From an uncultured Candidatus Saccharibacteria bacterium (lineage in GTDB: Bacteria; Patescibacteriota; Minisyncoccia; Phycocordibacterales; UBA9973), in NCBI GenBank assembly GCA_964571085.1, contig CAZMZT010000002.1:2784-66783 (forward strand): a stretch of 64,000 bases of DNA, written 5' to 3'. The notes under the pieces were generated by a model. It did no database searches. It saw nothing but the letters and a program-made list of their open reading frames with translations, and was not told the origin of the DNA. Position numbers and translations under genes: made by a program. Shown here in pieces: positions 2,251-58,206 of this stretch (position 1 is its first letter; each line of letters starts with the position of its first letter).

Positions 2251-2251
2251 T

Positions 2252-10126: not shown

Positions 10127-10198
10127 ATTATATTAATGACGCAACTTGAGCGTTTTGCTAAGTCTATGCAGAACTAGTGAAATATTGCATACTCGCGA

Positions 10199-11695: not shown

Positions 11696-11697
11696 AA

Positions 11698-12105
11698 TTA
11701 TTTTTTACGATTAATGTTTTTAATAGATTTCGACTTGGTAATTTTTGCTAGCTTGAGAGCTTGCTTTACAATTTTTGCCTGTGAGGGTGTCAGCTCCTCA
11801 TTGTCGTCTTTAGTGGTAATCTCAAGTTTGTTTTTGTAATTATCATTTCGATGACGAAGCCAGAAACTAATCGCAGGATAGTTTTTCTCTTTGATAAGGG
11901 TCAGCAGTTGGCTTTCACTCATGTCATTTACCAATGCGACACCCTCAGAAAGTGCAATATCCATTTTCTTGAGAAAATCTTTGTCTTCTTTTCGCCACCG
12001 ATAGATACTGTTTCGAGATAATCCTGTCTTCTCACATGCAACCTGAACAATTGGTACTTTTCTCAATTCTTCTAAGAACTGATCCTGAAATTTATTCTTT
12101 TTCAT
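11698..12105 (-). CDS. Terminase small subunit-like HTH protein
   Basis: 135 aa with an N-terminal HTH (...TGLSRNSIYRWRKED...). It sits immediately upstream of and is co-oriented with the large terminase. Confidence 0.45.
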   Translation of the reverse strand: MKKNKFQDQFLEELRKVPIVQVACEKTGLSRNSIYRWRKEDKDFLKKMDIALSEGVALVNDMSESQLLTLIKEKNYPAISFWLRHRNDNYKNKLEITTKDDNEELTPSQAKIVKQALKLAKITKSKSIKNINRKK

Positions 12106-44007: not shown

Positions 44008-44430
44008 ATGAAAATCAAAGTTAAAAAACTAAAAGAAGGTGCAAAGTTGCCGACATACGCCCACCCAGGGGACATAGGGCTAGATCTGTACGCAATGGAA
44101 GACAAAGTACTAGCACCTATGGAGCACTACCGATTCTGGCATGGGTTTGCGCTCGAGTTCCCAGAAGGTTATGGTGCTATAATAATGGACAAGGGTAGTA
44201 TATCTAAAGCAGGGTTACACCACATGGGTGGAGTGTACGATGCTGGATATAGAGGTGAATACAACACTCTGCTTGTAAACTTGGGTACTGAGCCCTATGC
44301 CTTTGAGAAGGGTGACAAAGTATCTCAGCTAGTAGTAATGCCAATAGTGATAGCCGAACTTGAAGAGACAGATACACTGAGCGATTCATCGAGAGGTGAA
44401 GGTATGTTTGGGAGTACAGGGAAAAAGTAA
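44008..44430 (+). CDS. dut: dUTP diphosphatase
   Basis: ...AHPGDIGLDLYA..., ...GVYDAGYRGE... and the C-terminus ...RGEGMFGSTGK are dUTPase motifs. Confidence 0.85.
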   Translation: MKIKVKKLKEGAKLPTYAHPGDIGLDLYAMEDKVLAPMEHYRFWHGFALEFPEGYGAIIMDKGSISKAGLHHMGGVYDAGYRGEYNTLLVNLGTEPYAFEKGDKVSQLVVMPIVIAELEETDTLSDSSRGEGMFGSTGKK

Positions 44431-44431
44431 T

Positions 44432-46132
44432 ATGGATATTAAAGAAAAAATAGAGAATTTAATAAAAGATGCACTAAAAAATCTCAGCATAGAAGCTGAG
44501 GACATTGTCCTCGAGCATCCAGCGGACATAAAGAATGGTGATTATTCTACAAACGTCGCTCTTGCTTGCGCGAAGGTTGCGAAAGTTAACCCGCGAGAAC
44601 TCGCCGACAAGATAAAGGCAGAACTCGAGAAGGACTTGCCAGAAGATATTTCTAAAGTTGAAGTCGCAGGAGCAGGGTTTATCAACTTCTACTTGTCTCG
44701 AGAATTTTTTGCAAATGCTACGAAAGATATTCTCAAGCAAGGCGACAACTGGGGTAAAAATGATTTGCTTGCGGGTAAGAAAGTCATGGTTGAGTATACT
44801 CAGCCGAACCCTTTCAAGCCGTTCCATATAGGTCACCTTATGAGTAACGCTATCGGTGAATCAATATCTCGCGTAGTAGAGTTCTCCGGTGCCAACACCA
44901 TCCGCGCCAACTATCAGGGCGATGTAGGTCCACATGTGGCCAAAGCTATCTGGGGGATAATGAACTCAGGCGAGGTGTATGAAGACCAAGGTGCACTATG
45001 GGTAGGTCAGCAATACGCCAAGGGTTCTGATGCATATGACAACGATGAAGAAAAGAAGAAAGAAATCGATGCGATAAACAAGAAAGTATATGACAAGAGC
45101 GATGAAGATATAAATAAAATATATGAATGGGGGAGGAAAGTCACCCTCGATGCATTTGAGGAGATCTATAAAACTCTTGGCACAAAGTTCGACTACTATT
45201 TCTTTGAGTCAGAAATGGCTCCAATAGGTGAGAAGATTGTCCGAGAGAACCTTGGCAAAGTATTTGAAGAGTCCGACGGCGCAATAGTGTTCCATGCGGA
45301 CAAATACGACCCCAAGCTCCACACTCGAGTATTCATAACTTCTATGGGCATACCTCTGTATGAGACTAAAGAAGTTGGCCTCATAGTCACAAAGTTTGAG
45401 AAAGAGAATCCAGATATATCTATTATCACTACTGCTATCGAGCAGGGTGAATATATGAAGGTAGTGCAGAAAGCAGTGTCTCTCATCCACCCTGACTATG
45501 AATCGAGGATGAAGCACGTGACTCACGGCATGATGCGCCTAGCTACTGGCAAGATGTCTTCTCGTAAAGGTAATGTGGTCACTGGAGAATCTTTGCTGAC
45601 TGATTCTATGGATGTTGTCCGCGAGAAAGTAGCCGATAGAGAGTTGTCTGAAGAAGAAAAGGAAACAATTTCTAGGGTTGTCGGTGTGTCTGCACTCAAG
45701 TACTCTATACTTCGTTCATCTATTGGTTCAGACATTGTTTATGACTTCGACAAGTCTATATCATTTGAAGGTGACTCTGGTCCATATCTGCAATACACTG
45801 CAGTGCGTGCAAACTCTATACACAAGAAAGCCGAGGCAGAAGGAATATGTGTAGCATATAAAGATACACCAAGCGAGGTATCCAACCTTGAGCGATCATT
45901 GTATCAATTCCCTGAAGTCGTCGAGCGTGCGTACCTGTCACTAGAGCCTCACCACATCGCTACTTACCTGACAGAGCTCGCAAGCGCGTTCAATGCTTTC
46001 TATGCCAATACTCAGATAGTAAATAAATCTGATCCATATGCACCATACCGCGTAGCACTTGTAGAAGCTTTCTATCAGACTATGAAGAATGGCCTTTACC
46101 TTCTGGGTATCAAAACTCCAGAGAAGATGTAA
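44432..46132 (+). CDS. argS: Arginine--tRNA ligase
   Basis: PNPFKPFHIGHLMSNAIGE is the HIGH region. A C-terminal DALR-type anticodon-binding domain follows. The start is at MDIKEK (44432). Confidence 0.9.
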   Translation: MDIKEKIENLIKDALKNLSIEAEDIVLEHPADIKNGDYSTNVALACAKVAKVNPRELADKIKAELEKDLPEDISKVEVAGAGFINFYLSREFFANATKDILKQGDNWGKNDLLAGKKVMVEYTQPNPFKPFHIGHLMSNAIGESISRVVEFSGANTIRANYQGDVGPHVAKAIWGIMNSGEVYEDQGALWVGQQYAKGSDAYDNDEEKKKEIDAINKKVYDKSDEDINKIYEWGRKVTLDAFEEIYKTLGTKFDYYFFESEMAPIGEKIVRENLGKVFEESDGAIVFHADKYDPKLHTRVFITSMGIPLYETKEVGLIVTKFEKENPDISIITTAIEQGEYMKVVQKAVSLIHPDYESRMKHVTHGMMRLATGKMSSRKGNVVTGESLLTDSMDVVREKVADRELSEEEKETISRVVGVSALKYSILRSSIGSDIVYDFDKSISFEGDSGPYLQYTAVRANSIHKKAEAEGICVAYKDTPSEVSNLERSLYQFPEVVERAYLSLEPHHIATYLTELASAFNAFYANTQIVNKSDPYAPYRVALVEAFYQTMKNGLYLLGIKTPEKM

Positions 46133-46339
46133 AAAACCGCCTGCAATGCTAAGATTGCTGGCGGTAAAATTGAGCACATAATGTGTTTAGGTTGACTACA
46201 ACAAGTAGATACTAATACGCCGGAAGGCATGGCATATTAATTTGTAATCATTTTTATGTAGGATTCCCTGCAATTAGCCCAGACACACTGGAGAAGGTTC
46301 AATTTGAACTTTATATTACTTATTTATATTACAATTGCA

Positions 46340-46535
46340 AGTTTTGCAATAAGGTAATTTTTATAGTATCTTATATATATGCATTGAAGAGGCTATCACC
46401 TCGGAGCATTGGGAAGAAACCACACGGTGGGAGTAGAGCCCTATAAAATGAGAAGTAAGCAAGGTGGTACCACGAGAGAAACTCGTCCTTGTATAGCAAT
46501 TTTTATTGTTATACGAGGACGAGTTTTTTAGTTAT
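46340..46535 (+). promoter_or_regulatory. T-box riboswitch leader (Ile specifier) for ileS
   Basis: The T-box sequence AAGGTGGTACCACGAG lies at 46461..46476. A candidate specifier loop GGCUAUCACC has AUC followed by A at 46395..46398. The terminator hairpin CTCGTCCTTGTATA...TATACGAGGACGAG plus U-run is at 46481..46528. Confidence 0.6.
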
Positions 46536-46541
46536 AAAATT

Positions 46542-49500
46542 ATGGAAAATAATACAAAAGGTAATAAATCAGAAGCAGCACTCCGCGAAGAGGGTGTTTT
46601 GGAGTTTTGGAAGGATAATGATATCTTCTCAGAGACTTTAAATCAATCTGAAGGCAAGGAAGAATTTGTCTTCTATGAAGGCCCTCCTACTGCTAACGGA
46701 AAGCCAGGTATCCACCATTTAGAAGCCCGAGCATTCAAAGACGCTATCCCTCGATACAAGACTATGAGAGGCTACCATGTTCGTCGCAAAGGGGGCTGGG
46801 ATACTCATGGGTTGCCAGTAGAACTTCAAGTAGAAAAAAAATTAGGCCTTGATTCCAAGAAAGCTATAGAAGAATACGGAATCGCAGAGTTCAACAAACA
46901 ATGTAAAGAAAGCGTATGGGAATATTTAGATATATGGAATAAATTTACCAAGCGCATAGGATACTGGGTAGACCAAGAGAATCCATATGTGACTTACCAT
47001 AACAACTACATAGAATCTGTATGGAATGTATTGAAACAAGTTGAAGATAAAAAACTTCTATATAAAGATTACAAAGTCGTACCTTGGTGTTCTCGTTGTG
47101 GTACCGCTCTTTCTTCGCATGAGCTTGCGCAAGGGTATGAAGATGTTAAAGATTTGTCAGTCTATGCGAAGTTCCCAATAGTTGGTTTTGATAAAGCGTA
47201 TTTTATTGCTTGGACTACAACTCCGTGGACATTAGCAGGTAACGTGGGGTTGGCTGTAGGACCTGATATAGATTATGTCGAAGCAAAAGTTGGAGACGAG
47301 ATATTGGTTCTAGCGAAAGAACTTCTCAGTAAGGTCACTGAACCATATGAAATAATTGCAGAGCATAAAGGTATTGAGATGGTGGGCATGGAGTACGAAC
47401 CACTTTATCCATATTTGAAAGATGCTCTACTTGTAAAGGGTGAAGATGTGAGTAAAGCGTTTAAAGTTTACGAAGCTTCATTTGTTACTACAACTGACGG
47501 TACTGGAATAGTGCATACAGCAGTTATGTATGGGCAAGAAGACTTTGATCTGGGTACAAAAGTTGGTTTACCAAAGTTCCACACAGTCGACGACACTGGG
47601 CACTTCATCAAAGGCACAGGGTTCCTAGAAGGAAGGTTCGTAAAAGATGAAGATGTGGCTGTGGATATCATTAAAGACCTTGCACATAGAGGACTACTCT
47701 TCAAGAAAGAAAAGTATGAACATTCATACCCACACTGCTGGCGATGTAAAACTCCACTTATCTACTATGCACGCGATTCTTGGTATATTCGCATGTCAGA
47801 TGCAAAGATAAAGAGTCAGTTGATAGAAGAGAATAAAACTATAAACTGGGAGCCAATGCACACTCGAGATGGGCGTTTTGGTGAGTGGCTCAAAGACATC
47901 AAAGACTGGGCAATATCACGTGAGCGTTATTGGGGTACACCACTACCTATCTGGCAGAAGGCCGACGGCAGTCGTATGGTGATAGATTCAATAGATACTC
48001 TTAAAAAGCATGTAAAGAAAAGTGGCAACAATTACTTTGTAATGCGACATGGTGGTACTGAAGGCAACCTCAAGGAACTAGTCAGCTATAAAGATCAAGA
48101 GAATGACAATCTAACTAGAGAAGGTGAAGCTCAAGTCCGACAGTCTGCAGAGAAATTGAAAGATAGCAAAATAGACCTAATCATATACTCTCCGTTTGTT
48201 CGTACCACTGAGACTGCTTCTATAGTGCGTGAAGTTTTAGGTTTAGATAAGGACCAGATGATCTCTGACCAAAGACTTATAGAAGTAGCTCCAGGAGAAT
48301 TTGATGGAAAGAACTGGAATGAATATCATGAACATTTGTATAATATGGAGCACGGATGGTTTGAAAGGAAAATCCCTGGAGGTGAATCGCTCCAAGATGT
48401 TACAGAGAGGACTGGAGCTGTGCTGTATGACCTTGAGGACAAGTACTCTGATAAAAATATTTTGATAATTACTCATGGCGGCCCAGCATGGACTATGTAT
48501 GTAGCGGCTGGTCTGTATGAGAAGCGTAATACTGAATATAAGAAAGCAGACACCCATGTATTCGTCAAAGAATTCCAGAGGTTCGACAATGCAGAGGTTC
48601 GTAGTCTACCTTTTGTTCCATTGCCACACAACAAATTTAATATTGTAGATTTACACAGACCTTATATTGATGAAGTTGAGCTTATGGATGAAGAAGGTAG
48701 TTCGATGATTCGCGTGAAAGAAGTAATGGATGTATGGTTCGACTCTGGCGCTATGCCTTTTGCCCAAGATCATTATCCATTTGAAAATAAGGAGTGGGTA
48801 GATGGCAAAGGATTCCCAGCGGACTATATTTCAGAAGCGATCGACCAGACTCGTGGATGGTTCTATACATTGCATGCTGTAGGGGTCCTGATGGGGCGTG
48901 GCAAAGCCTACAAGAACGTCATCTGCCTTGGGCACATCCTTGATGATAAAGGGAAGAAGATGTCCAAATCGCAGGGCAACATTGTAGACCCATGGCTCAT
49001 GATAGAGAAGTACGGCGTAGACACTCTTCGTATGTGGATGTATTCAGTCAACCAACCAGGTGAATCCAAGAACTTCGACGAGAAGACCGTAGCTCTACTT
49101 CATCAGCAGGTATTTAAACTTCTATACAATGTGCTGGCTTTCTATGAACTCTACAGAGATAAAGATTTAGAGGGTGATGAATACAAAGAGTCAGGCAACA
49201 TCCTCGATCAGTGGATAGTGGTAAGACTTACTGAACTCACTGACCTTGCAACCAAGAACCTGGATAATTATAAACTTCTTGAACCTACACGCGCGATACG
49301 TGAATTCATAGACGACCTCTCTACTTGGTACCTTCGTCGTTCACGCGACAGAATAAAGGAAGCAAATACGAAAGATAGTAAAGAAGCAAAGCAGACTCTA
49401 TACTTTGTATTGAAGAACTTAGCTAAACTTATGGCCCCACTTGCGCCGTTTACTGCTGAAGATATCTGGCAAAAGTTAAGGAATGATAAAGACGAAGATA

Positions 49501-50006
49501 GTGTGCATCTAAGCAAATGGCCTGTGGGGGGAGATGTTAGCTTGAAAATTTTAGAGAAAATGGAAACAGCCCGATCTATAATTACCCAAGGATTAGAACT
49601 TCGCCAGAAATCAGGAATCAAAATTCGACAACCGCTCCAGTCGCTTTCTTTTGAAGCAATCGAACTGGAACAGTACTACGGCATTATCAAGGACGAATTA
49701 AACGTAAAACAAATTATTTCAGGTATCCTTGCTCTTGATACAGAAATTACTCCAGAACTTAAACAAGAAGGCCAGTATCGCGAGGTTGTTCGTGCTGTTC
49801 AAGACATGCGTAAAGCGGAGGGACTCAGCCCGAGTGATGTGGTAGTGCTTGAAGTTGCAACCAATACTGATGGCCAAGAAATAATAAATAAATTTAAAGC
49901 TGAATTGATAAAAATCGTCGGTGCAAGCGAAGTGAAAATTGCTGAGAATGAGGGAACTGAAGTAAAGATTGATGAGTTAGTATTTAGAATAAATATCATA
50001 AAATGA
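46542..50006 (+). CDS. ileS: Isoleucine--tRNA ligase with an inserted histidine-phosphatase (PGAM-like) domain
   Basis: Class I motifs are ...PPTANGKPGIHHLEAR... (HIGH-type) and KMSKSQGN. The CP1 editing region is present, then DWAISRERYWGTPLP and DVWFDSG. Between the last two motifs sits ...NYFVMRHGGTEGN...YSPFVRTTETA...ITHGGPAW..., a complete RHG...HG phosphatase signature at ~48020..48660. Confidence 0.85.
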   Translation: MENNTKGNKSEAALREEGVLEFWKDNDIFSETLNQSEGKEEFVFYEGPPTANGKPGIHHLEARAFKDAIPRYKTMRGYHVRRKGGWDTHGLPVELQVEKKLGLDSKKAIEEYGIAEFNKQCKESVWEYLDIWNKFTKRIGYWVDQENPYVTYHNNYIESVWNVLKQVEDKKLLYKDYKVVPWCSRCGTALSSHELAQGYEDVKDLSVYAKFPIVGFDKAYFIAWTTTPWTLAGNVGLAVGPDIDYVEAKVGDEILVLAKELLSKVTEPYEIIAEHKGIEMVGMEYEPLYPYLKDALLVKGEDVSKAFKVYEASFVTTTDGTGIVHTAVMYGQEDFDLGTKVGLPKFHTVDDTGHFIKGTGFLEGRFVKDEDVAVDIIKDLAHRGLLFKKEKYEHSYPHCWRCKTPLIYYARDSWYIRMSDAKIKSQLIEENKTINWEPMHTRDGRFGEWLKDIKDWAISRERYWGTPLPIWQKADGSRMVIDSIDTLKKHVKKSGNNYFVMRHGGTEGNLKELVSYKDQENDNLTREGEAQVRQSAEKLKDSKIDLIIYSPFVRTTETASIVREVLGLDKDQMISDQRLIEVAPGEFDGKNWNEYHEHLYNMEHGWFERKIPGGESLQDVTERTGAVLYDLEDKYSDKNILIITHGGPAWTMYVAAGLYEKRNTEYKKADTHVFVKEFQRFDNAEVRSLPFVPLPHNKFNIVDLHRPYIDEVELMDEEGSSMIRVKEVMDVWFDSGAMPFAQDHYPFENKEWVDGKGFPADYISEAIDQTRGWFYTLHAVGVLMGRGKAYKNVICLGHILDDKGKKMSKSQGNIVDPWLMIEKYGVDTLRMWMYSVNQPGESKNFDEKTVALLHQQVFKLLYNVLAFYELYRDKDLEGDEYKESGNILDQWIVVRLTELTDLATKNLDNYKLLEPTRAIREFIDDLSTWYLRRSRDRIKEANTKDSKEAKQTLYFVLKNLAKLMAPLAPFTAEDIWQKLRNDKDEDSVHLSKWPVGGDVSLKILEKMETARSIITQGLELRQKSGIKIRQPLQSLSFEAIELEQYYGIIKDELNVKQIISGILALDTEITPELKQEGQYREVVRAVQDMRKAEGLSPSDVVVLEVATNTDGQEIINKFKAELIKIVGASEVKIAENEGTEVKIDELVFRINIIK

Positions 50007-50464
50007 TAAAAGTTAATCAAACAGCATTTGGTGTGGTAACCGCTATCAAAGAAGATGGCGAATATAAATTCTTGTTATTGTTACAAAGTAGAAAATACCA
50101 AAACTGGAGTTTTCCTAAGGGTAAGACTGAAGAAGGGGAAACTGATCCTCTCTCAATCGCTATGCGTGAGCTGGGCGAGGAGACGGGTATTACAGAAATC
50201 GAGATTCTAGACTTCCCACTAATAGAAGAAGAGTACGAGTTGGTACGGAAAGATAAGATTTTCTCTAGGACTAATAAGTACTTCTTAGGAATAGTAAAAA
50301 GTAAATCTGTGACAGTACAAGAAGGAGAAATTTTCGACTATAAGTGGGCAACTTATGATGAAGCATTTGAAACCGCTGTTTTTCAAAGAGAAACTCGATT
50401 GAAAGTTCTAAAGGAAGCCAAAGAATACCTAGATGAATATGATTCAAAAAATGTGGTAAAATAG
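50003..50464 (+). CDS. Nudix hydrolase
   Basis: The Nudix box is ...FPKGKTEEGETDPLSIAMRELGEETGI.... Confidence 0.7.
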   Translation: MIKVNQTAFGVVTAIKEDGEYKFLLLLQSRKYQNWSFPKGKTEEGETDPLSIAMRELGEETGITEIEILDFPLIEEEYELVRKDKIFSRTNKYFLGIVKSKSVTVQEGEIFDYKWATYDEAFETAVFQRETRLKVLKEAKEYLDEYDSKNVVK

Positions 50465-50468
50465 ATTC

Positions 50469-50861
50469 ATGAAGACTATTCTAGTAGATGCAGTATATTG
50501 CTTTGTTGTTAAAGACGAAGGCAAATTTGGCATATTTGACCAAATGCATGATTTACTTGAAAAATATCCTAACAATAAAATAATTCTTACCAATGCAAGT
50601 GACGATAAATTTGAAGAGTATGGTTTTCACAACATGCCTTATGAAGTATTTACACTAAAGCATAATCCAGAAAAAACAGATCCAGAATACTTTATAAAAT
50701 TATTGAATCATTTAAACCTGGGTGCAAAAGATGTTGTATACTTTGAACATAACATTGAGGCAGTTAAGAGCGCTCAATCGGTCGGCATAATTTCATATTT
50801 TTATGATGAAAACAAAAGAGACCTAATAAGATTAGAGACTTTTCTTGCTAAAAATTTGTAA
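50469..50861 (+). CDS. Small HAD-like hydrolase-fold protein (tentative)
   Basis: 130 aa. The N-terminus ILVDAVYCFV and the ...VVYFEHN... pattern are HAD-like but degenerate. Confidence 0.3.
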   Translation: MKTILVDAVYCFVVKDEGKFGIFDQMHDLLEKYPNNKIILTNASDDKFEEYGFHNMPYEVFTLKHNPEKTDPEYFIKLLNHLNLGAKDVVYFEHNIEAVKSAQSVGIISYFYDENKRDLIRLETFLAKNL

Positions 50862-50867
50862 TATAAT

Positions 50868-51452
50868 ATGCACCACATTTACCACACACATGGATTTGTA
50901 CTGAGCTCTCGCAATAGTGGCGAGGCGAACAAAATGCTCACTATATATACTCGCGAGATGGGGTTGGTGCGGTGTGCAGTCCAAGGTGTGCGACTACACA
51001 AGTCCAAACTTCGCTTTGCTATTCAAGACTTCTCTTATGCCAATGTGGACCTGGTGCGGGGTAGGGATGTATGGCGGGTAACTTCAGCTACCAACATCAC
51101 TTCGTTCCCATACGCACGTGCCGAAAGAGAGTCACTCCTACTCATCGCTCGCATTAGCAAGCTCATCGAGAGGCTCTGCGATGGTGAAGAAGCCAACGAG
51201 AGAATATTCGACGACTTTATCCAAGCTCTCTACCTCCTCGATGACCCAGAACTTGTGCCCGGGACTCGTACAGCACTAGAGCTCCACCTAGTTCTGCGGA
51301 TTATGAATACACTAGGATACATTGGTGATTCTGAAGTTCTGGCTCAATACCTCTCAGTACCGTTTGATGGAGTGCAGACAGAAAGCTTGCTCAAGGAAAG
51401 GCAGTCTATAATATCGCATATAAACAAGGCTCTAAACGAAAGCCAGCTTTAA
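50868..51452 (+). CDS. recO: DNA repair protein RecO
   Basis: ...HGFVLSSRNSGEANKMLTIYTREMGLVRCAVQG... is the RecO N-terminal OB-fold pattern. Confidence 0.7.
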   Translation: MHHIYHTHGFVLSSRNSGEANKMLTIYTREMGLVRCAVQGVRLHKSKLRFAIQDFSYANVDLVRGRDVWRVTSATNITSFPYARAERESLLLIARISKLIERLCDGEEANERIFDDFIQALYLLDDPELVPGTRTALELHLVLRIMNTLGYIGDSEVLAQYLSVPFDGVQTESLLKERQSIISHINKALNESQL

Positions 51453-51485
51453 AATAAGGTCTACTATGCTATAATAAGGTTTACA

Positions 51486-53393
51486 ATGCCTGACGATAAA
51501 CATAAAATCGAAGATATAAAGCGACGACTCTATGACCGCGAAGACACTGTATCGGGCAGACCGCATGTAGGTGTGCTCCACCCTATAGACCACAAAGTAG
51601 ACACAGCATGGAAGAGCGACACACCACCAGTTAGCAACAATAATTCATTCTCACTAGACAGCAATATGAAGAAACCACCTACATCATTCTTTAAAAAGTT
51701 CTTTATTGGAGCGATCGTTTTCTTTTTCTGCTCACTTATGTTTGCTGGGTACATGTTCTATAGTGGTGGCGTATCAGTATCAAGTGAGAACATAGATATC
51801 ATTGTTCTCGGCAATGCATTTACTAAAGGAGGCGAAGAACTTCCACTCCAGATCGAGATAATAAACCGCAACAAAGCCAAGCTTGAACTTGCAAACCTTG
51901 TTATATCCTATCCTCGAGGTGCCAGTGATAGTACCGCAGACATGATTCGACTCCCTCGTGAATCTATAGGCACAATAAATGCTGGTGACACTATTACTCG
52001 CAATGCAAGTGTGTCGCTCTTTGGTGATGAGAAGTCTATCCGTAATGTAAAGATAAGTTTGGAGTACCATCCCGAAGGTTCGAATGCTATATTTACCAAA
52101 GATGTTATATACCCAGTGACCATAAGTTCTGCGCCACTCTCACTACTACTTGATGCACCTGACCAAGTCACATCTGATCAACTTACGACAATCAAGGTCA
52201 CTGCATCTTTGAACACTTCACTTCCAGAAGGCGCCACCATGCTCCAAGTTGCATATCCAAATGGATTCGTGTTTGATAGCGCTGTTCCTACGCCAAGTGT
52301 TGGCAACTCTGTTTGGAATCTATCAGAACTTACTACTACCAACCCTGTGTCTATAGAAGTTAAAGGCCGAATAATAGGCCAAGATGGGGAAGACAAGGTT
52401 TTTCATGTGTATGCCGGAACTACTAGTCCAACAGATCAATCCAAGGTAAATGTAGTCTACAACTCACTACTACATAGTATGAAGATAGCCAAGCCGTTCC
52501 TAGAAGCTCGAATACTAGTAAACAACCAAGACCTCACTACATATACTGCAAGTAGCAGTGAGACCATCCAAGGCGAAGTGTCATGGACCAACAACCTTCC
52601 GTCACGGATTACTGATGGGCAGATCATAGTCACACTCTCAGGCAATGCTCTAGATAAAAGCAGTGTAAATCCACTCGAAGGATTCTATGACTCAGCCAAC
52701 AATCAGATAATCTGGGACAAGAACACGATATCTGACTTTGCAAGCATCGAGCCAGGAGCAAGCGGAACTGTCAGCTTCAACTTCAAGTCCATCTCGCTCT
52801 TGGGCCCTTCGGTCACTATCAAAGACCCACAGATAGCGCTCGATGTCAGTATCCGTGGCAGGCAACCATCACTAGGCTCTACATATACTGATGTCAACAA
52901 CTTTGCGAAGAAGGTGGTAAAGATACTCTCTGACTTCCAGATAGCGTCATCGGGTTCATATGCTTCTGGGGCACTTCCACCAAAAGCAGAAACAGAAACC
53001 AAGTACACCATAACTTGGACACTCTCCAACTCTGCAAACAACATTACTTCTGCGCAAGCACGCTCTGTACTACCTATATATGTAAAGTGGGGAGGTGTGT
53101 CTGGTGCAGGTGAAGATGTGAAGTACAACGAAGTCACTCGTGAAGTAGTATGGAACATCGGCTCTGTAAGACCAAACACAGGGTTCGGATCCAACCGAGA
53201 AGCATCATTCAACTTACTACTCAAGCCTTCGACTTCTCAGATAGGGAGCGTACCTCAGCTCATGAAAGACACATTCCTCACTGGTACAGATGCGTTTACA
53301 GGAACTCCTGTGAAGAGTAAGCGTGGACCTATCACAACATTATTATCCAATGACCCGAGTTTCCAATCTGGAAACGAACGTGTTATACAGTAG
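51486..53393 (+). CDS. Large membrane-anchored extracellular protein (hypothetical)
   Basis: There is a single TM at ~aa 70-90 (FFIGAIVFFFCSLMFAGYMF), then ~540 aa that are Ser/Thr-rich and beta-rich. Confidence 0.4.
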   Translation: MPDDKHKIEDIKRRLYDREDTVSGRPHVGVLHPIDHKVDTAWKSDTPPVSNNNSFSLDSNMKKPPTSFFKKFFIGAIVFFFCSLMFAGYMFYSGGVSVSSENIDIIVLGNAFTKGGEELPLQIEIINRNKAKLELANLVISYPRGASDSTADMIRLPRESIGTINAGDTITRNASVSLFGDEKSIRNVKISLEYHPEGSNAIFTKDVIYPVTISSAPLSLLLDAPDQVTSDQLTTIKVTASLNTSLPEGATMLQVAYPNGFVFDSAVPTPSVGNSVWNLSELTTTNPVSIEVKGRIIGQDGEDKVFHVYAGTTSPTDQSKVNVVYNSLLHSMKIAKPFLEARILVNNQDLTTYTASSSETIQGEVSWTNNLPSRITDGQIIVTLSGNALDKSSVNPLEGFYDSANNQIIWDKNTISDFASIEPGASGTVSFNFKSISLLGPSVTIKDPQIALDVSIRGRQPSLGSTYTDVNNFAKKVVKILSDFQIASSGSYASGALPPKAETETKYTITWTLSNSANNITSAQARSVLPIYVKWGGVSGAGEDVKYNEVTREVVWNIGSVRPNTGFGSNREASFNLLLKPSTSQIGSVPQLMKDTFLTGTDAFTGTPVKSKRGPITTLLSNDPSFQSGNERVIQ

Positions 53394-53400
53394 AGAGTAT

Positions 53401-54696
53401 ATGGAAAAACAAGACAATAAAATGGAAAAGATAATATCATTAGCCAAGCGCCGGGGCTTTGTATACCAAGGCTCTGAGATCTATGGCGGGCTTGCAGGTA
53501 CTTGGGACTACGGTCCTCTAGGAGTAGCTATCAAGAACAACATCAAGGATGCATGGCGCAAGAAGTTCGTATCATCTCGCGATGATATGTACGAAGTAGA
53601 TGCTGCTATACTGATGAACTCTAAAGTCTGGGAGGCATCTGGCCACGTGGCTGGATTCTCGGATCCACTGGTTGAATGCAGTAAATGTAAACGTCGTTTC
53701 CGCGCTGATCAACTTGATGATCCAAAGGTTTGTCCTGACTGTAAAGGTACACTCGGTGAAGCACGCCAGTTCAACATGATGTTCGCCACTCAGATTGGTG
53801 CGATGGAGGATTCATCAGCGACTGTGTACTTGCGACCTGAAACTGCCCAAGGAGTATTTGTAAACTTCAAAAACATTGTAGACTCCTTCCATCCAAAGCT
53901 TCCTTTTGGAATAGCACAGATAGGTAAAGCATTCCGCAATGAGATAACTCCTCGCGACTTTGTGTTCCGAGTACGTGAACTGGAGCAGATGGAAGTAGAG
54001 TACTTTATACGTCCAGAGGATTGGGAGAAGCATTTCCTCTACTGGCGTGACTCTGTTGTAGAATTTGTTGAGCAACTTGGACTTGATATGGCGCTCCTTC
54101 ACGAAGTAGAAGTAGGGGACGGTGACCGCGCTCACTATTCCAAACGCACTATCGACTTTGAGTTTGACTTCCCGTTTGGACAGAAAGAACTCTTGGGCCT
54201 CGCATACCGCGGTAGCTTTGACTTAGATAATCACAAGCTAGACTACATAGATGAAGAAGCCAAAGAAAAGATAGTGCCTCATGTTATCGAGCCATCTATG
54301 GGAGTGGACCGCATGATGCTCGCACTTATGGTGTCTGCATATAGAGAGGATGAGCAGAATGGAGATACGAGGAGCTACCTTGCCTTCAAGCCTTCAGTTG
54401 CACCTGTTATCTGTGCAGTGTCACCACTTCTAAAGAACAAACCAGAACTCGTAGAGAAAGCTCGCATCGTATACGGCGAGCTCAAAGCGGAGTTCGGCCG
54501 AGTCATGTGGGACGACAATGGCAACATAGGCAAACGCTACCGCAGACAAGACGAGATAGGCACACCATACTGCATTGTCATAGACTTCGATACACTAACA
54601 GATGACGCAGTGACTATCCGCGATCGAGACACAGGAGTCCAAGAGCGTATCAGTGTTTCAAAAATTGTTGAATATATAAAGGATAAACTAAATTAA
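53401..54696 (+). CDS. glyQS: Glycine--tRNA ligase (homodimeric class II type)
   Basis: ...LAKRRGFVYQGSEIYGGLAGTWDYGPLG... is the class II motif region. The size fits glyQS. Confidence 0.9.
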   Translation: MEKQDNKMEKIISLAKRRGFVYQGSEIYGGLAGTWDYGPLGVAIKNNIKDAWRKKFVSSRDDMYEVDAAILMNSKVWEASGHVAGFSDPLVECSKCKRRFRADQLDDPKVCPDCKGTLGEARQFNMMFATQIGAMEDSSATVYLRPETAQGVFVNFKNIVDSFHPKLPFGIAQIGKAFRNEITPRDFVFRVRELEQMEVEYFIRPEDWEKHFLYWRDSVVEFVEQLGLDMALLHEVEVGDGDRAHYSKRTIDFEFDFPFGQKELLGLAYRGSFDLDNHKLDYIDEEAKEKIVPHVIEPSMGVDRMMLALMVSAYREDEQNGDTRSYLAFKPSVAPVICAVSPLLKNKPELVEKARIVYGELKAEFGRVMWDDNGNIGKRYRRQDEIGTPYCIVIDFDTLTDDAVTIRDRDTGVQERISVSKIVEYIKDKLN

Positions 54697-54697
54697 T

Positions 54698-55132
54698 ATG
54701 CAGAAAGGAATTGATTATGTAGGTATTACTGTCTCATACTTATGTCATGATGGGCAGGGTAACTTTGTTATGAATAAGCGCAGCACTAATTGTCGTGATG
54801 AGCATGGAGCTTGGGATTTTGGTGGTGGTGGTGTAGATTTTGGCGACACAATTGAGCAGACTCTTTTAAAAGAAGTAAAAGAAGAATATTGTGTAGAACC
54901 TTCTTCTTATGAATTCATGGGATATTTTGACATATTTCGTACTCATAATAATAAGAAGACCCACTGGCTATCAATGATTTTTTTGGTAGAAGTAAATAGA
55001 GATGAATTACAAAATGGTGAGCCACATAAATTTGAAGAAATTAAATGGGTAAGATTGGATAGTTTACCCACTCCACTTCATACTGCATGGCAGTATGTTC
55101 TACCAAAGATTATAGATAAACTACCAAAGTAA
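54698..55132 (+). CDS. Nudix hydrolase
   Basis: ...GGGVDFGDTIEQTLLKEVKEEYCV.... Confidence 0.65.
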   Translation: MQKGIDYVGITVSYLCHDGQGNFVMNKRSTNCRDEHGAWDFGGGGVDFGDTIEQTLLKEVKEEYCVEPSSYEFMGYFDIFRTHNNKKTHWLSMIFLVEVNRDELQNGEPHKFEEIKWVRLDSLPTPLHTAWQYVLPKIIDKLPK

Positions 55133-55186
55133 AGATTTTGACAAGTATCCTAGTATCTAGTATTGTGAACAAAAAACTAGATAACT

Positions 55187-55759
55187 ATGCCAAGATACCT
55201 CCTTACCTTTACAGGACCGAGAGGTGCTGGCAAGGATACAGCACTTGGAAAAGTGTTGGAAGAATACCCTAGAATTCACAGGATTGTCCCGTGCACTACA
55301 AGATCGCCTCGCATTGGAGAAGTTAATGGAATACATCAGTATTTTATTTCAGAACAAGTTTTTGCTGAAAAAGAAAGGAATTGCGAATTTGTTTTTGTTA
55401 ATCCAATGAATGATAGTGGCTACCGCTCAGGAACATTAAAATCAGAACTCCTACATGATATATGTGCTGTAGATATAACAGCATATGGAGCAAATATCAT
55501 GCGTGACTACGTTCTTTTAAATGGAGGTTCTGTTCTTTCGTTTTTCATTTATGCAGGCTATCGTACTCGTTATAAAAGAATAAGAAAAAGGCAACCTGAT
55601 AAAACTCCACTTGAAGTTAAGCAAATGATGATAGGTGATCCTACAATACCTAATCCAGAATCTCACCCTGATTGGTATAAAAAGATTCACAATCCAAATA
55701 AGGGATTGGAACAGGCTTTGAATAATGTTTATTCATATATTGATGAATTTTTAAAATAA
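55187..55759 (+). CDS. Guanylate kinase-like P-loop kinase
   Basis: TGPRGAGKDT is the P-loop. ...PCTTRSPRIGEVNGIHQYF... matches the TTR-PR-GE-G-Y-F motif. Confidence 0.55.
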   Translation: MPRYLLTFTGPRGAGKDTALGKVLEEYPRIHRIVPCTTRSPRIGEVNGIHQYFISEQVFAEKERNCEFVFVNPMNDSGYRSGTLKSELLHDICAVDITAYGANIMRDYVLLNGGSVLSFFIYAGYRTRYKRIRKRQPDKTPLEVKQMMIGDPTIPNPESHPDWYKKIHNPNKGLEQALNNVYSYIDEFLK

Positions 55760-55832
55760 TCTCCTGTTTAGTAGGAAGAGCTGATTTATCAGCTCTTTTT
55801 TATGTCATACTTTTATGTGATATATTGAATAT

Positions 55833-57104
55833 ATGACCAAACCAATAAAGAAAACATTAAAGAACGGCTTGCGGGTTATAACAGTGCCAATGAAAGACAA
55901 CCCGACAGTCACAGTGCTTGTGCTTGTAGGTACAGGGAGCGACTATGAGGAGAAGAAGGTGAATGGCATCTCGCACTTCCTCGAGCACATGTGCTTCAAA
56001 GGTACAATCAAAAGGCCAAATGCACAGGCTATATCGAACGAGCTTGATGCACTCGGTTGCCAATACAACGCCTTCACAGATCATGAAATGACTGGCTACT
56101 ATGCTAAAAGTGATGCCAAGAATTTCAAGAAGGTTTTTGATGTAGTTTCAGATATTTACTTGAACTCTACATTCCCAGAGGCAGAGATAGAGAAGGAGAA
56201 AGGTGTGATAGTAGAGGAGATAAACATGTACGAGGACATGCCAGCACGCCACGCCGTAGACCTATTCCAAGAAGTCCTGTATGGTGACCAGCCAGCAGGC
56301 AGAAACATTGCTGGCACCAAAGATCGCGTGCGTGCCATGACTCGCAATGACTTTGTAAAGTACAAGAAAGAACACTACGTGGCCAAAGGTACAGTAATAG
56401 TCGTCTGTGGAAGTGTCACAAAAGCAGAAGTAGACAAAGAAGTCGCCAAGCATTTCTCGAATGTCCCGACAGGTCAGAAAGGCAATAAAGTAAAAACAAA
56501 GGACGCCCAGACAAAGCCAAAAGCATTTGTGAAATATAAAGATACAGATCAGACCCACTTTGTGCTAGGAGTGCGTTCGTTCCCACTGTTCGACAAACGC
56601 AACTATCAGTTACTTTTATTAGGCGCAGTACTGGGCGCAGGGATGAGTTCACGGTTGTTTATAAAACTACGTGATGAGATGGGTGTGGCTTACTATGTGC
56701 GTGCTTACAACGATGCGTCTATTGACCATGGAAGCTTTCAAATATCTGCTGGTGTCAACAACGCTCGCACAGAAGAAGTTATAAAAGAAATATTGAAAGA
56801 ATGCACTAGACTTGTGAAGGAAAAGGTCACTGACCGCGAACTGACAAAAGTTAAATCATTCTTGGTGGGGAACATGAAGCTGTCGCTTGAAGCCACAGAT
56901 GATGTTGCCAATTTTTACGGTACCCAGGAACTCATGCGTAGGGATGTCAAAACTCTCGACGAGAAGATAAAAGCAATTATGAAGGTAACTCCAGCTGAAA
57001 TCCAGAAAATGGCTCAAACAATATTTAAAAACAAGAACCTAAATCTCGCTCTCATAGGCCCATACAAAGAAAGCAGTAAATTACAGAAAATTCTAACATT
57101 TTAG
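55833..57104 (+). CDS. M16-family (pitrilysin-like) zinc peptidase
   Basis: The inverted zinc motif HFLEHMCFKGT (HxxEH) is present. The protein is 423 aa. Confidence 0.8.
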   Translation: MTKPIKKTLKNGLRVITVPMKDNPTVTVLVLVGTGSDYEEKKVNGISHFLEHMCFKGTIKRPNAQAISNELDALGCQYNAFTDHEMTGYYAKSDAKNFKKVFDVVSDIYLNSTFPEAEIEKEKGVIVEEINMYEDMPARHAVDLFQEVLYGDQPAGRNIAGTKDRVRAMTRNDFVKYKKEHYVAKGTVIVVCGSVTKAEVDKEVAKHFSNVPTGQKGNKVKTKDAQTKPKAFVKYKDTDQTHFVLGVRSFPLFDKRNYQLLLLGAVLGAGMSSRLFIKLRDEMGVAYYVRAYNDASIDHGSFQISAGVNNARTEEVIKEILKECTRLVKEKVTDRELTKVKSFLVGNMKLSLEATDDVANFYGTQELMRRDVKTLDEKIKAIMKVTPAEIQKMAQTIFKNKNLNLALIGPYKESSKLQKILTF

Positions 57105-57137
57105 GTACAGACTAGCAGATTGTGGTAAAATACTCAT

Positions 57138-58205: not shown

Positions 58206-58206
58206 T

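What the first reader, a model, noticed from the sequence alone, without database searches (positions are those of the whole stretch)
48020..48660. Histidine-phosphatase (PGAM-like) domain inserted inside the catalytic core of isoleucyl-tRNA synthetase
The ileS ORF is continuous for 1166 aa. Between the conserved ...DWAISRERYWGTPLP... and ...DVWFDSG... blocks of the aminoacylation domain it contains a ~210-aa segment with the full histidine-phosphatase signature. The signature consists of a catalytic RHG motif (FVMRHGGTEGN), a middle block (LTREGEAQVRQSAEKL...IDLIIYSPFVRTTETA) and a distal HG motif (ILIITHGGPAW). Class I synthetases tolerate connective-peptide insertions, but an intact phosphatase-fold enzyme domain embedded in IleRS is highly unusual. 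It suggests an added activity such as nucleotide or aminoacyl-adenylate dephosphorylation, Ap4A-type metabolism, or regulation. The gene also has a T-box leader, so it is presumably the functional housekeeping copy.
Basis: seen in the sequence. Interest (0 to 1): 0.65.

Follow-up and report, generated by a model that had tools for sequence, protein, structure and literature searches.

The report
Active phosphatase domain nested inside IleRS
The isoleucyl-tRNA synthetase gene of this uncultured Patescibacteria (CPR) bacterium carries a complete histidine-phosphatase domain, with all catalytic residues intact, in a surface hairpin of its catalytic core; hundreds of related species share this architecture, and I found no paper describing it.

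Summary
One ORF (ATG 46542 to stop 50006, 1154 aa) encodes a type-2 IleRS (TIGR00392, 881 bits). About 208 aa (nt 48015-48638) replace about 5 residues at the tip of the hairpin between WAISRERYWG and DVWFDSG. This insert is a His_Phos_1 domain (E 6e-31; insert-only AlphaFold pLDDT 90).

It is not a chimera. All 120 best full-length homologues (62-100% identity) have the same architecture, and a scan of GTDB species genomes gave 449 matches; the 80 loci returned are nearly all titled Patescibacteria. The six catalytic residues are conserved in 119-120 of 120 sequences, and non-synonymous change is far below saturated synonymous change.

In Gracilibacteria/Peregrinibacteria-type IleRS, the same domain family sits at three further insertion points. 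Up to three copies occur per IleRS, and four in one ValRS-like protein. Those loops also host GNAT, HAD, kinase-like and DUF559 domains.

The best reading is a bifunctional housekeeping enzyme: a normal T-box-controlled IleRS plus an autonomous small-substrate phosphomonoesterase of the PhoE/iPSP/CobC type. The link is by tethering and co-expression, not by precise geometry. The substrate is unknown.

I found nothing on this in the literature available to me. I rate it a new variant of a known kind.

The parts
46375..46532 (+). ileS T-box leader. It has an ultrashort Stem I hairpin GAGG-CUAUCA-CCUC (46389-46402) with the Ile specifier AUC at 46395-46397 followed by A. The T-box sequence AAGGUGGUACCACG lies at 46461-46474. 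The terminator hairpin is at 46479-46526 and is followed by a U-run.
   Evidence: Rfam RF00230 scores 42.8 bits, E 3.7e-8, below the gathering score of 93. The leader fold has z = -6.5 and a 25-bp terminator stem. The motif is conserved upstream of ileS in 38/74 related loci, and the specifier hairpin shows compensatory changes in more than 20 loci.
46542..50006 (+). ileS coding sequence (1154 aa plus stop): a type-2 IleRS with a nested phosphatase domain. The ORF listing starts at TTG 46506, inside the terminator stem.
   Evidence: TIGR00392 881 bits, cut-off 621; best structural and sequence match is P. megaterium IleRS2, 8C8W. An identical protein, P0121, is in public collections on a 72-kb contig.
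46707..46718 (+). Class I signature motif in the non-canonical form G-I-H-H (aa 68-71 of the 1166-aa numbering) in place of HxGH.
   Evidence: The motif class is defined in PMC10485003 as G/AXHH, linked there to mupirocin hyper-resistance of IleRS2.
46542..48014 (+). IleRS N-terminal part: first half of the Rossmann fold, the CP1 editing domain (WTTTPWTL, GTGIVH motifs), and the WAISRERYWGTPLP block with the first arm of the hairpin that hosts the insert.
   Evidence: aligns to 8C8W residues 10-478; invariant columns.
48015..48638 (+). Inserted histidine-phosphatase (His_Phos_1, branch 1) domain, aa 504-711. The Pfam core is aa 511-668 (nt 48036-48509). Catalytic codons are R514 48045-47, H515 48048-50 (nucleophile), N521 48066-68, R566 48201-03, E593 48282-84 (acid/base) and H657 48474-76.
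   Evidence: Pfam E 6.2e-31. Insertion limits come from the alignment to 8C8W. Catalytic residues are conserved in 119-120/120. The insert-only AF2 model has pLDDT 90 and pTM 0.89. Foldseek best matches are iPSP 4IJ5/4IJ6, 6S2Q, 9MMH, GpgP 4PZ9 and PhoE 1H2E. Coordinates were checked.
48639..50003 (+). [quoted passage not shown]
   Evidence: aligns to 8C8W residues 484-1019.

Best explanation
This is a bifunctional housekeeping enzyme.

The IleRS2 body keeps every element needed for aminoacylation and editing: the GIHH signature, KMSKS, the CP1 editing motifs, and the anticodon-binding and type-2 C-terminal domains. It is expressed from a tRNA-Ile-sensing T-box leader.

A complete PhoE/iPSP/CobC-like histidine phosphatase of about 205 aa was captured in frame at the tip of a surface hairpin of the catalytic domain. 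This is the CP3 / second zinc-knuckle hairpin, and its zinc cysteines have been lost in this clade.

I infer that the inserted domain folds independently and works as a phosphomonoesterase. His515 would be the phospho-acceptor, R514, R566, N521 and H657 would bind the phosphate, and E593 would be the acid/base. The substrate would be small, because the active site keeps the roughly 35-residue cap segment typical of small-molecule phosphatases of this family.

I also infer that the link to IleRS is tethering and co-expression under Ile-starvation control, together with protection from gene loss inside an essential gene, rather than a precise spatial relation to the synthetic site. The substrate is unknown. 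A phosphorylated metabolite or nucleotide used in salvage is my best guess.

Shown: the architecture, its conservation, the intact catalytic residues, purifying selection, and recurrent independent insertion.

Inferred: catalytic activity, substrate class, and the reason for the fusion.
For: - **Architecture and insertion point:**
- **Not an artefact:** all 120 best full-length homologues (62-100% identity) carry PF00300 at the same place, several on contigs of 0.6-0.8 Mb. The GTDB species-genome scan gave 449 matches. The 80 best loci all cover the whole 295-aa query and are nearly all titled Patescibacteria, Paceibacteria, Nomurabacteria or Minisyncoccia.
- **Selection for catalysis:** R514, H515, R566, E593 and H657 are conserved in 120/120 and N521 in 119/120, while average column conservation of the insert is only 0.60 against 0.75-0.80 for the body. 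pN of the insert is 0.13-0.39 against saturated pS of 0.67-0.9.
- **Autonomous fold:** the insert alone models at pLDDT 90 and pTM 0.89. The insert is also the best-modelled stretch of the full-length model (10-residue block means mostly 83-95).
- **Small-molecule phosphatase relatives:** iPSP, PhoE and CobC by sequence (E 4e-9 to 1e-6). iPSP, GpgP, the riboflavin-pathway HFP and PhoE by fold (target-normalised TM 0.70-0.77). The E-to-GES cap segment has the same length as in iPSP in the printed alignment.
- **Loose geometry:** in Gracilibacteria/Peregrinibacteria-type IleRS, the same domain family with intact catalytic residues sits at three other points (S1b, S2, S3) in many combinations. 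The same loops host GNAT, HAD, AAA_33/AAA_18 and DUF559 domains.
- **Charge:** the domain is acidic (pI 4.9, net charge -11), which does not suggest RNA backbone binding.
- **Housekeeping status:** T-box leader. Synteny argS-ileS-recO-p635 holds in most loci: argS 63, recO 73 and p635 71 of 80.
Against: - No activity or substrate has been measured.
- The insert reaches no NCBIfam equivalog cut-off, so its specificity cannot be transferred from any characterised enzyme.
- The repeated capture of this one domain family by IleRS, and by a ValRS-like protein (P0288), at several sites may mean a real functional tie to class Ia synthetases. 'Co-expression' does not explain that.
- I could not inspect model coordinates, so the orientation of the phosphatase pocket relative to the synthetic site and the tRNA acceptor path is unknown.
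- Whether the genome has a second IleRS could not be checked from a 64-kb window.
Confidence: 0.5

Rival explanations
1. The phosphatase is mechanistically coupled to the synthetase cycle. One version has it removing a 2'/3'-terminal phosphate from tRNA-Ile so the tRNA can be charged, which would be end-healing or reversal of a toxin modification. Another has it dephosphorylating a nucleotide product such as AMP next to the active site.
For: - The host hairpin lies within the catalytic domain.
- The same domain family has been inserted independently at four or more points of IleRS, and in a ValRS-like protein. Both hosts are class Ia editing synthetases.
- Partner domains in relatives include P-loop kinase-like (AAA_33/AAA_18), HAD, HD and GNAT domains. 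From my own knowledge, members of these families act on RNA ends or aminoacyl-tRNA in repair and toxin systems.
- NCBIfam's second-best hit is the phosphatase half of the bifunctional RNase H/acid phosphatase.
Against: - The four insertion points lie in different loops, including one 76-81 residues after KMSKS, so no common geometry toward the CCA end is evident.
- The domain is acidic (pI 4.9, net -11; group means pI 5.9-6.8), unlike typical RNA-binding modules.
- It keeps the capped pocket of small-molecule phosphatases.
- The same loops also accept unrelated domains such as DUF559 and an IS200-type transposase domain, which suggests permissive sites.
- There is no PADLOC defence-system match.
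Confidence: 0.2
2. The domain is a non-catalytic structural or regulatory module. It would replace the lost zinc knuckle as a stabiliser of the hairpin, or bind a phosphorylated ligand to modulate IleRS allosterically.
For: - The zinc cysteines of the hairpin are absent in the window's clade (sequence compared with 8C8W). About half of the tip-type insertions lack CxxC/CxC motifs.
- The junction residues S506, G507, N508 and Y510 are nearly invariant in the clade, which suggests a fixed packing against the body.
Against: - All six catalytic residues are conserved across 120 sequences, and in all other insertion groups, while the rest of the domain drifts. These include the nucleophile His and the acid/base Glu, which binding alone does not need.
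- Relatives that keep the zinc cysteines also carry the domain (P0352).
Confidence: 0.07
3. The domain is a protein phosphatase that acts in cis or on partners. For example, it could reverse an inhibitory phosphorylation of the synthetase near the KMSKS loop by HipA-like kinases.
For: From my own knowledge, the superfamily includes protein phosphatases (SixA, PGAM5, Sts-1). Two of the alternative insertion points flank the KMSKS region. The SixA model gives a weak match of 39 bits.
Against: The SixA cut-off (74.5) is not met. The domain has the long cap segment that SixA lacks, since the SixA match covers only the first ~100 residues. Nothing in the window suggests a cognate kinase.
Confidence: 0.04
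4. It is an assembly chimera, a frameshift-masked pair of genes, or a decaying pseudogene.
For: Some database entries are fragments. One related contig (L081) shows ileS cut into five pieces, with the phosphatase called as a separate 'PhoE' gene.
Against: - The reading frame is continuous here and in 120 of 120 best full-length homologues from different samples and assemblers.
- Composition is uniform across the junctions.
- Purifying selection acts on the insert.
- L081 is broken throughout the gene, not only at the domain borders, which fits sequencing errors.
Confidence: 0.01

Closest known systems
Small-substrate histidine phosphatases of branch 1 (B. stearothermophilus PhoE 1H2E, H. thermophilus iPSP/PspA 4IJ5, CobC alpha-ribazole phosphatase 3HJG, mycobacterial GpgP 4PZ9)
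   Same: The fold is the same, and so is the RHG...R...E...H catalytic set, the cap segment length and the overall size of about 200 aa.
   Different: Those enzymes are free-standing. This domain is nested in another enzyme. Identity is only about 22%, and no NCBIfam equivalog cut-off is met, so the substrate cannot be inferred.
Bacterial type-2 IleRS with the non-canonical G/AXHH signature motif (Brkic et al. 2023, PMC10485003; structures 8C8U-8C8W)
   Same: The body aligns end to end with P. megaterium IleRS2 (E 6e-241). It carries GIHH in place of HxGH and has the type-2 C-terminal domains.
   Different: None of the described IleRS2 enzymes has an extra enzyme domain in the catalytic core. 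The hairpin zinc cysteines are also lost here. That paper does not mention phosphatase, and neither does a 96,219-sequence IleRS survey (bioRxiv 10.64898/2026.02.03.703510).
CP1 editing domain of class Ia synthetases (IleRS, ValRS, LeuRS)
   Same: It is the precedent for a hydrolytic domain nested in the Rossmann fold of the same enzymes. The window protein also keeps CP1.
   Different: CP1 is universal, has a different fold and acts on the enzyme's own mischarged product. The phosphatase insert is clade-specific, is recruited from a free-standing enzyme family, and has no demonstrated link to the reaction cycle.
NCBIfam NF040702 'isoleucine--tRNA ligase, N-acetyltransferase domain-containing' (ileS_w_GNAT)
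   Same: It shows that database curators have met IleRS proteins with an extra enzyme domain. GNAT-bearing IleRS appear among the Gracilibacteria/Peregrinibacteria relatives found here, often together with His_Phos_1.
   Different: The window protein scores 327 bits against a cut-off of 1999 and has no GNAT domain.
Bifunctional RNase H / acid phosphatase (NCBIfam NF005567)
   Same: A CobC/PhoE-like histidine phosphatase is fused to a nucleic-acid enzyme. It is the second-best NCBIfam match of the insert (82 bits).
   Different: From my own knowledge, that is an end-to-end fusion, not a nested insertion. The cut-off of 326 is not met.

Membership tests
Isoleucyl-tRNA synthetase, type 2 (IleRS2) | Whole-protein score above the curated ileS equivalog cut-off | tested here: met
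   TIGR00392 scores 881.2 bits against a cut-off of 621.4.
Isoleucyl-tRNA synthetase, type 2 (IleRS2) | Class I signature motifs (HxGH or its G/AXHH variant, and KMSKS) and CP1 editing motifs | tested here: met
   GIHH is at aa 68-71 and KMSKS at aa 818-822. WTTTPWTL and GTGIVH are invariant in the alignment. The G/AXHH variant is defined in PMC10485003.
Isoleucyl-tRNA synthetase, type 2 (IleRS2) | Type-2 C-terminal organisation (no C-terminal zinc-binding domain; DUF5915-type domain) | tested here: met
   PF19302 matches at aa 1075-1164. The best PDB matches are IleRS2 8C8W/8C8U and T. thermophilus 1ILE, well ahead of type-1 1FFY.
Isoleucyl-tRNA synthetase, type 2 (IleRS2) | Aminoacylation of tRNA-Ile | not testable with these tools
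   Needs an enzyme assay. Indirect support comes from the Ile-specifier T-box leader.
Plasmid-type mupirocin-resistance IleRS (MupA / MupB) | Score above the exception-model cut-off | tested here: not met
   MupB scores 767 bits and MupA 751 bits against a cut-off of 1900.
Histidine phosphatase superfamily, branch 1 (Pfam PF00300) | Profile match above the gathering score | tested here: met
   108 bits against 21.7, E 6.2e-31, aa 511-668.
Histidine phosphatase superfamily, branch 1 (Pfam PF00300) | Catalytic set: RHG Arg and His, Asn, second Arg, Glu acid/base, distal His | tested here: met
   R514, H515, N521, R566, E593 and H657 are present. They are conserved in 119-120/120 homologues.
Histidine phosphatase superfamily, branch 1 (Pfam PF00300) | Alpha/beta fold of the family | tested here: met
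   The insert model has pLDDT 90. Foldseek matches iPSP, GpgP and PhoE with E 1e-13 to 1e-10 and target-normalised TM 0.67-0.77.
Histidine phosphatase superfamily, branch 1 (Pfam PF00300) | Phosphatase or mutase activity through a phospho-histidine intermediate | not testable with these tools
   Needs biochemistry.
Cofactor-dependent phosphoglycerate mutase (dPGM) | Equivalog or subfamily score | tested here: not met
   TIGR01258 pgm_1 scores 19.4 against 81.7, and dPGM_arch 71.1 against 225. The segment after the catalytic Glu reads IEVAPGEFDG. From my own knowledge, dPGMs have an E-R-H-Y-G motif there.
Alpha-ribazole phosphatase CobC, phosphoserine phosphatase PspA, GpmB, SixA | Equivalog cut-off | tested here: not met
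   cobC 84.8 against 162.9; PspA 67.3 against 350; GpmB 54.2 against 261; SixA 39.4 against 74.5.
T-box leader (Rfam RF00230) | Covariance-model score at or above the gathering score | tested here: not met
   42.8 bits against 93. There is no hit in the gathering-threshold scan of the window. The shortfall comes from 76 Stem I model positions reduced to 6 nt.
T-box leader (Rfam RF00230) | Specifier codon matching the regulated gene, the conserved T-box sequence with a UGGN bulge, and a terminator that competes with it | tested here: met
   AUC followed by A sits in the loop at 46395-46398. AAGGUGGUACCACG is at 46461-46474. The terminator is at 46479-46526. These features are conserved, with compensatory stem changes, in related loci.
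Intein or other self-splicing protein insertion | Hint-fold domain with a nucleophile at the N-terminal junction and HN plus Cys/Ser/Thr at the C-terminal junction | tested here: not met
   No intein family appears in the Pfam output. The whole insert is accounted for by the phosphatase fold. The C-terminal junction reads PHN-K (consensus PHN-E), with no +1 nucleophile.

The most novel reading that the evidence does not exclude
Class Ia synthetases of CPR bacteria (IleRS, and at least one ValRS-like protein) may serve as platforms that repeatedly capture whole enzyme domains in frame at a few surface loops. In this reading the histidine phosphatase, the commonest passenger, has a synthetase-linked job. 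One candidate is clearing a blocking phosphate from the tRNA 3' end, which would be a built-in tRNA end-healing or anti-toxin activity. Another is removing a phosphorylated inhibitor or by-product at the active site. That would be a second proofreading or repair activity nested in an aaRS, besides CP1 editing.
Probability: 0.12. Interest if true: 0.85.

Novelty: new variant of a known kind. Interest (0 to 1): 0.68.

Why it matters
Apart from the CP1 editing domain, I know of no described bacterial aminoacyl-tRNA synthetase with a second catalytic domain nested in its Rossmann-fold core. Domain accretion in synthetases is usually discussed as a eukaryotic theme.

Here an apparently active phosphatase has been kept inside an essential translation enzyme across a large radiation of uncultured, host-dependent bacteria. 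Sister lineages have repeated the capture at other loops, with up to three copies per IleRS, and with other enzyme domains as well.

That gives three things:
- a natural map of permissive insertion sites in a class Ia synthetase, which is useful for protein engineering;
- a case study of how reduced genomes may shelter accessory enzymes inside genes that cannot be deleted;
- a testable candidate for a new synthetase-associated activity.

It also matters for annotation. These proteins are labelled only 'class I tRNA ligase family protein' or, in fragments, 'histidine phosphatase family protein'. Surveys that cut IleRS into canonical domains would not register the insert.

Tried and rejected
- **Artefact or chimera:** rejected.
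- **Natural split gene:** the one candidate, P0013 plus P0032 on a single contig, turned out to be an ileS broken into five pieces along its whole length. That looks like a frameshifted assembly.
- **Functional link to the downstream Nudix gene**, which overlaps the ileS stop: rejected as a general partner. Nudix is found in only 8 of 80 related loci, while argS-ileS-recO-p635 synteny holds in most (argS 63, recO 73 and p635 71 of 80).
- **Intein-like element:** rejected (see the membership test).
- **Phosphoglycerate mutase, CobC, PspA or SixA identity:** none reaches its curated cut-off.
- **Defence-system association:** no meaningful PADLOC match for the insert.
- **Phage origin:** no relative in viral contigs.
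- **dN/dS:** synonymous sites are saturated (pS 0.67-0.9), so only the qualitative statement pN << pS can be made.
- **Geometry:** I could not read model coordinates, because only FASTA files are exposed. The position of the phosphatase pocket relative to the synthetic site is therefore unresolved.
- **AlphaFold-database fold search:** the afdb50 library was not available.
- **Literature:** nine searches and five papers read gave no description of an IleRS-phosphatase fusion.
- **Single versus multiple origins of the inserted domains:** mean identities between insertion groups (0.29-0.31) are at the family background. They neither support nor exclude one origin followed by intragenic transposition.
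Full report
**1. The observation**

The window has a single uninterrupted ORF on the + strand, 46506..50006, 1166 aa from a TTG. Base composition is even across it.

Pfam splits it into tRNA-synt_1, then His_Phos_1 (aa 511-668, E 6.2e-31, 108 bits against a cut-off of 21.7), then tRNA-synt_1 again, Anticodon_1 and DUF5915. NCBIfam calls the whole protein ileS (TIGR00392, 881 bits, cut-off 621).

The true start is probably ATG 46542 (1154 aa). The listed TTG lies inside the stem of the leader terminator.

**2. Where the insert sits**

Against solved structures, the best match is P. megaterium IleRS2 (8C8W, E 6e-241). Chain residues 10-478 align to query 12-491, and chain 484-847 to query 700-1058, in 1154-aa numbering. 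About 208 residues (nt 48015-48638) therefore replace about 5 residues.

The site is the tip of the hairpin between WxISRxRYWGxPxP and DxWFDSG. From my own knowledge of T. thermophilus IleRS, the equivalent hairpin binds a zinc ion through CxxC...CxC. The yeast IleRS paper lists CP3 among the connective peptides. The window protein has no cysteines at those positions.

The full-length AF2 model (pLDDT 76.8, pTM 0.65) superposes on IleRS2 structures. The insert is its best-modelled stretch, with 10-residue block means mostly 83-95. The insert alone models at pLDDT 90 and pTM 0.89.

**3. What the insert is**

By sequence, its nearest solved relatives are:
- metal-independent phosphoserine phosphatase iPSP (4IJ5, E 3.6e-9);
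- a histidine-family phosphatase (9MMH);
- PhoE (1H2E);
- CobC (3HJG).

By fold, the same group plus mycobacterial GpgP comes first, with target-normalised TM 0.67-0.77 at about 22% identity.

The catalytic set is complete: R514-H515-G516, N521, R566, E593 and H657. The segment between the catalytic Glu and the GES motif has the length seen in iPSP in the printed alignment. This is the capped pocket of small-molecule phosphatases.

No NCBIfam equivalog cut-off is reached for cobC, PspA, dPGM, GpmB or SixA. The domain is a member of the superfamily but of no characterised specificity group. It is not a phosphoglycerate mutase.

**4. It is real and widespread**

A search of 5.8 billion proteins with the full-length sequence returned an identical public protein (P0121, 72-kb contig). 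All of the 120 best full-length hits, at 62-100% identity, carry PF00300 together with the IleRS domains. Several are on contigs of 0.6-0.8 Mb. Where a name is given, it is almost always Patescibacteria, Paceibacterota, Nomurabacteria or Minisyncoccia.

A scan of one genome per GTDB species found 449 matching places. The best 80 all span the whole 295-aa query of insert plus flanks, and they come from the same groups. A few records titled Burkholderiales, Nitrospira or Sedimentisphaerales are probably mis-binned contigs; that is my inference.

Gene order argS-ileS-...-recO-p635 is conserved in most of the 80 loci (argS 63, recO 73, p635 71). The Nudix gene that overlaps the ileS stop codon occurs only in the 8 closest.

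**5. Selection**

In an alignment of 120 sequences, the insert is less conserved than the body (mean consensus match 0.60 against 0.75-0.80). Yet R514, H515, G516, R566, E593 and H657 are invariant and N521 is 119/120.

Synonymous sites between the window and its closest relatives are saturated (pS 0.67-0.9), while pN of the insert is 0.13-0.39. So the insert is under purifying selection, though it evolves 1.2-2.5 times faster than the body.

This pattern is what an active enzyme domain shows. A scaffold would not be expected to keep the nucleophile and the acid/base.

**6. A wider phenomenon**

Searching 1.84 billion cluster representatives with the insert alone gave 57 hits at E <= 1e-30. 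Most long proteins among the best 150 carry the match at residues ~480-750, as the window protein does, so I read them as IleRS-embedded. A few had several copies.

Following these with a third homology search led to IleRS of Gracilibacteria, Peregrinibacteria and Peribacteria. These have a canonical HYGH motif and are 1200-1859 aa long.

Mapping the domain against landmark motifs gives four insertion points:

| Site | Position | Count |
|---|---|---|
| S1a | hairpin tip, before HRPYID (the window's type) | 179 proteins |
| S1b | same hairpin, after the second zinc knuckle | at least 9 |
| S2 | between DxWFDSG and DQTRGWF | at least 19 domains |
| S3 | 76-81 residues after KMSKS | about 60 domains |

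Combinations up to S1+S2+S3 occur. Among the proteins analysed from that search, 19 have no phosphatase domain, and most of these are 1019-1106 aa with no extra domain at all.

One ValRS-like protein (P0288) has four copies.

All these copies keep the catalytic residues.

The same loops hold other domains in other members:
- GNAT, HAD, AAA_33/AAA_18 kinase-like and DUF559 nuclease-like domains;
- once, an IS200-type transposase domain.

A close relative of the window protein has a C-terminal HD domain (P0192).

Mean identity between the insertion groups (0.29-0.31) is no higher than the background of the family. The groups are either separate captures or very old.

**7. How it most likely works**

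The IleRS body has everything needed for activation, transfer and editing, and it sits behind a T-box leader with an Ile (AUC) specifier. I take it to be the housekeeping synthetase.

The phosphatase is a self-contained fold joined by two short linkers at the end of a hairpin. It should therefore work as an independent phosphomonoesterase with His515 as the phospho-acceptor.

Three observations argue that the benefit of the fusion does not depend on a fixed geometry toward the synthetic site or the tRNA:
- the same domain functions at four different loops;
- those loops accept unrelated enzymes;
- the domain is acidic (pI 4.9, net -11) with a capped pocket.

The most economical reading is a tethered, co-regulated small-substrate phosphatase. 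Being inside an essential gene may also protect it from the deletion pressure of a reduced genome. I give this 0.5.

The main rival, at 0.2, is a real coupling to the synthetase cycle, such as removing a phosphate from the tRNA 3' end or acting on a nucleotide product. Its support is the striking recurrence of this one family in class Ia synthetases and the kinase, HAD, HD and GNAT company it keeps.

A purely structural or sensor role (0.07) is disfavoured by the conserved catalytic residues. A protein-phosphatase role gets 0.04. An artefact is excluded as far as sequence data allow (0.01).

**8. Comparison with what is known**

The body is a member of IleRS2, and specifically of the G/AXHH signature-motif class that Brkic et al. 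linked to mupirocin hyper-resistance. The insert is a member of histidine phosphatase branch 1.

I did not find the combination described. Neither the IleRS2 structural paper nor a 2026 survey of 96,219 IleRS sequences, including its supplement, mentions phosphatase. Seven further full-text searches returned nothing relevant (review read).

The nearest curated precedent is the NCBIfam model for IleRS with a GNAT domain.

I therefore rate it a new variant of a known kind: a multi-domain synthetase carrying a known enzyme fold in a new, nested and recurrent arrangement. It is public in databases, but I found no description of it.

**9. The T-box**

Rfam finds no T-box at the gathering threshold. 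A local scan gives RF00230 at 46375-46493 with 42.8 bits and E 3.7e-8. The deficit comes from Stem I, where 76 model positions are replaced by 6 nt.

The leader has:
- a 4-bp hairpin with the loop CUAUCA (AUC followed by A);
- a Stem II-like region with an AGUAGA element;
- the T-box sequence with a UGGU bulge;
- a 25-bp terminator followed by a U-run.

The T-box motif is found upstream of ileS in 38 of 74 related loci. A 4-bp hairpin with an NNAUCR loop was found in 27 of the 40 motif-bearing loci re-scanned, and more than 20 of them show G/C-rich stems with compensatory changes: GAGG/CCTC, GGAG/CTCC, GACA/TGTC, AGGG/CCCT.

Noticed in passing
window 46375-46532; related loci L003-L080 upstream of ileS: The ileS T-box has an 'ultrashort' Stem I: a 4-bp hairpin with the AUC specifier in a 6-nt terminal loop and no distal tRNA-elbow platform. 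Yet it is followed by a strong intrinsic terminator. A review (PMC7583486) describes ultrashort Stem I as a feature of translational T-boxes and calls the platform essential in transcriptional ones. These CPR leaders may be an exception. Rfam's gathering threshold misses them.
   Followed up: partly
window 46707-46718: The class I HIGH signature is G-I-H-H, the G/AXHH variant that Brkic et al. 2023 tied to mupirocin hyper-resistance in IleRS2. It is nearly invariant (GIHH) across the window's clade. Phosphatase-bearing IleRS of Gracilibacteria/Peregrinibacteria mostly have the canonical HYGH.
   Followed up: partly
proteins P0361, P0346, P0395, P0399, P0383 and others: IleRS of Gracilibacteria, Peregrinibacteria and Peribacteria carry one to three histidine-phosphatase domains at three further insertion points (S1b, S2, S3). 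Total lengths reach 1859 aa. The closest insert-free relatives are about 1020-1080 aa.
   Followed up: partly
protein P0288 (1161 aa, ENA contig 3.9 kb): A ValRS-like protein (PPPNVTGNLHLGHA, WCISRQIWWGHRIPVWY) has four histidine-phosphatase domains, one before and three after the WCISRQ block. The association therefore extends beyond IleRS.
   Followed up: no
proteins P0386, P0421, P0439, P0445, P0446, P0471, P0352, P0192: The same surface loops of CPR IleRS also hold GNAT acetyltransferase, HAD phosphatase, AAA_33/AAA_18 (Zeta-toxin-like) kinase and DUF559 nuclease-like domains. In P0352 an IS200-type Y1 transposase domain sits inside CP1. P0192 has a C-terminal HD domain. In-frame nuclease and transposase domains inside an essential gene suggest capture of mobile genes.
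   Followed up: partly
window 47940-48010 and 48640-48720: The zinc-binding cysteines of the hairpin (CxxC...CxC in P. megaterium and T. thermophilus IleRS2) are absent in the window protein. About half of the tip-type insertions lack them, while relatives such as P0352 keep both the cysteines and the phosphatase.
   Followed up: partly
window 50003-50861: A Nudix hydrolase gene starts 4 nt before the ileS stop (ATGA overlap). It is followed by a 130-aa ORF with a weak HAD-IA match. The Nudix gene accompanies ileS only in the 8 closest of 80 related loci, so it is not a conserved partner.
   Followed up: yes
window 51486-53393: A 635-aa protein has no Pfam or PADLOC match and a hydrophobic segment near its N-terminus. 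It is conserved next to recO downstream of ileS in 71 of 80 related loci. Its function is unknown.
   Followed up: no
window 1821-13369: tRNA-Gln (CTG) at 1821-1894 is followed by a probable mobile or defence island. It holds a PLD plus SNF2-helicase protein (2252-5545), an Eco57I-type methylase fusion (5542-8814), a large serine recombinase (8807-10126, minus strand), a DEAD-box helicase (10199-11695) and an N4/N6 DNA methylase (12092-13369).
   Followed up: no
window 44396-59652: Four synthetase genes lie within 16 kb: argS, ileS, glyS-type (53323-54696) and metG (58207-59652). Only ileS has an extra domain; the others are compact (457-578 aa).
   Followed up: yes
locus L081 (JGI contig Ga0558717_13791), 1-3563: A related ileS is called as five separate genes, with the phosphatase annotated as a free-standing 'PhoE'. 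The breaks run along the whole gene, which points to frameshift errors. Fragments like this explain database entries named 'histidine phosphatase family protein, partial'.
   Followed up: yes
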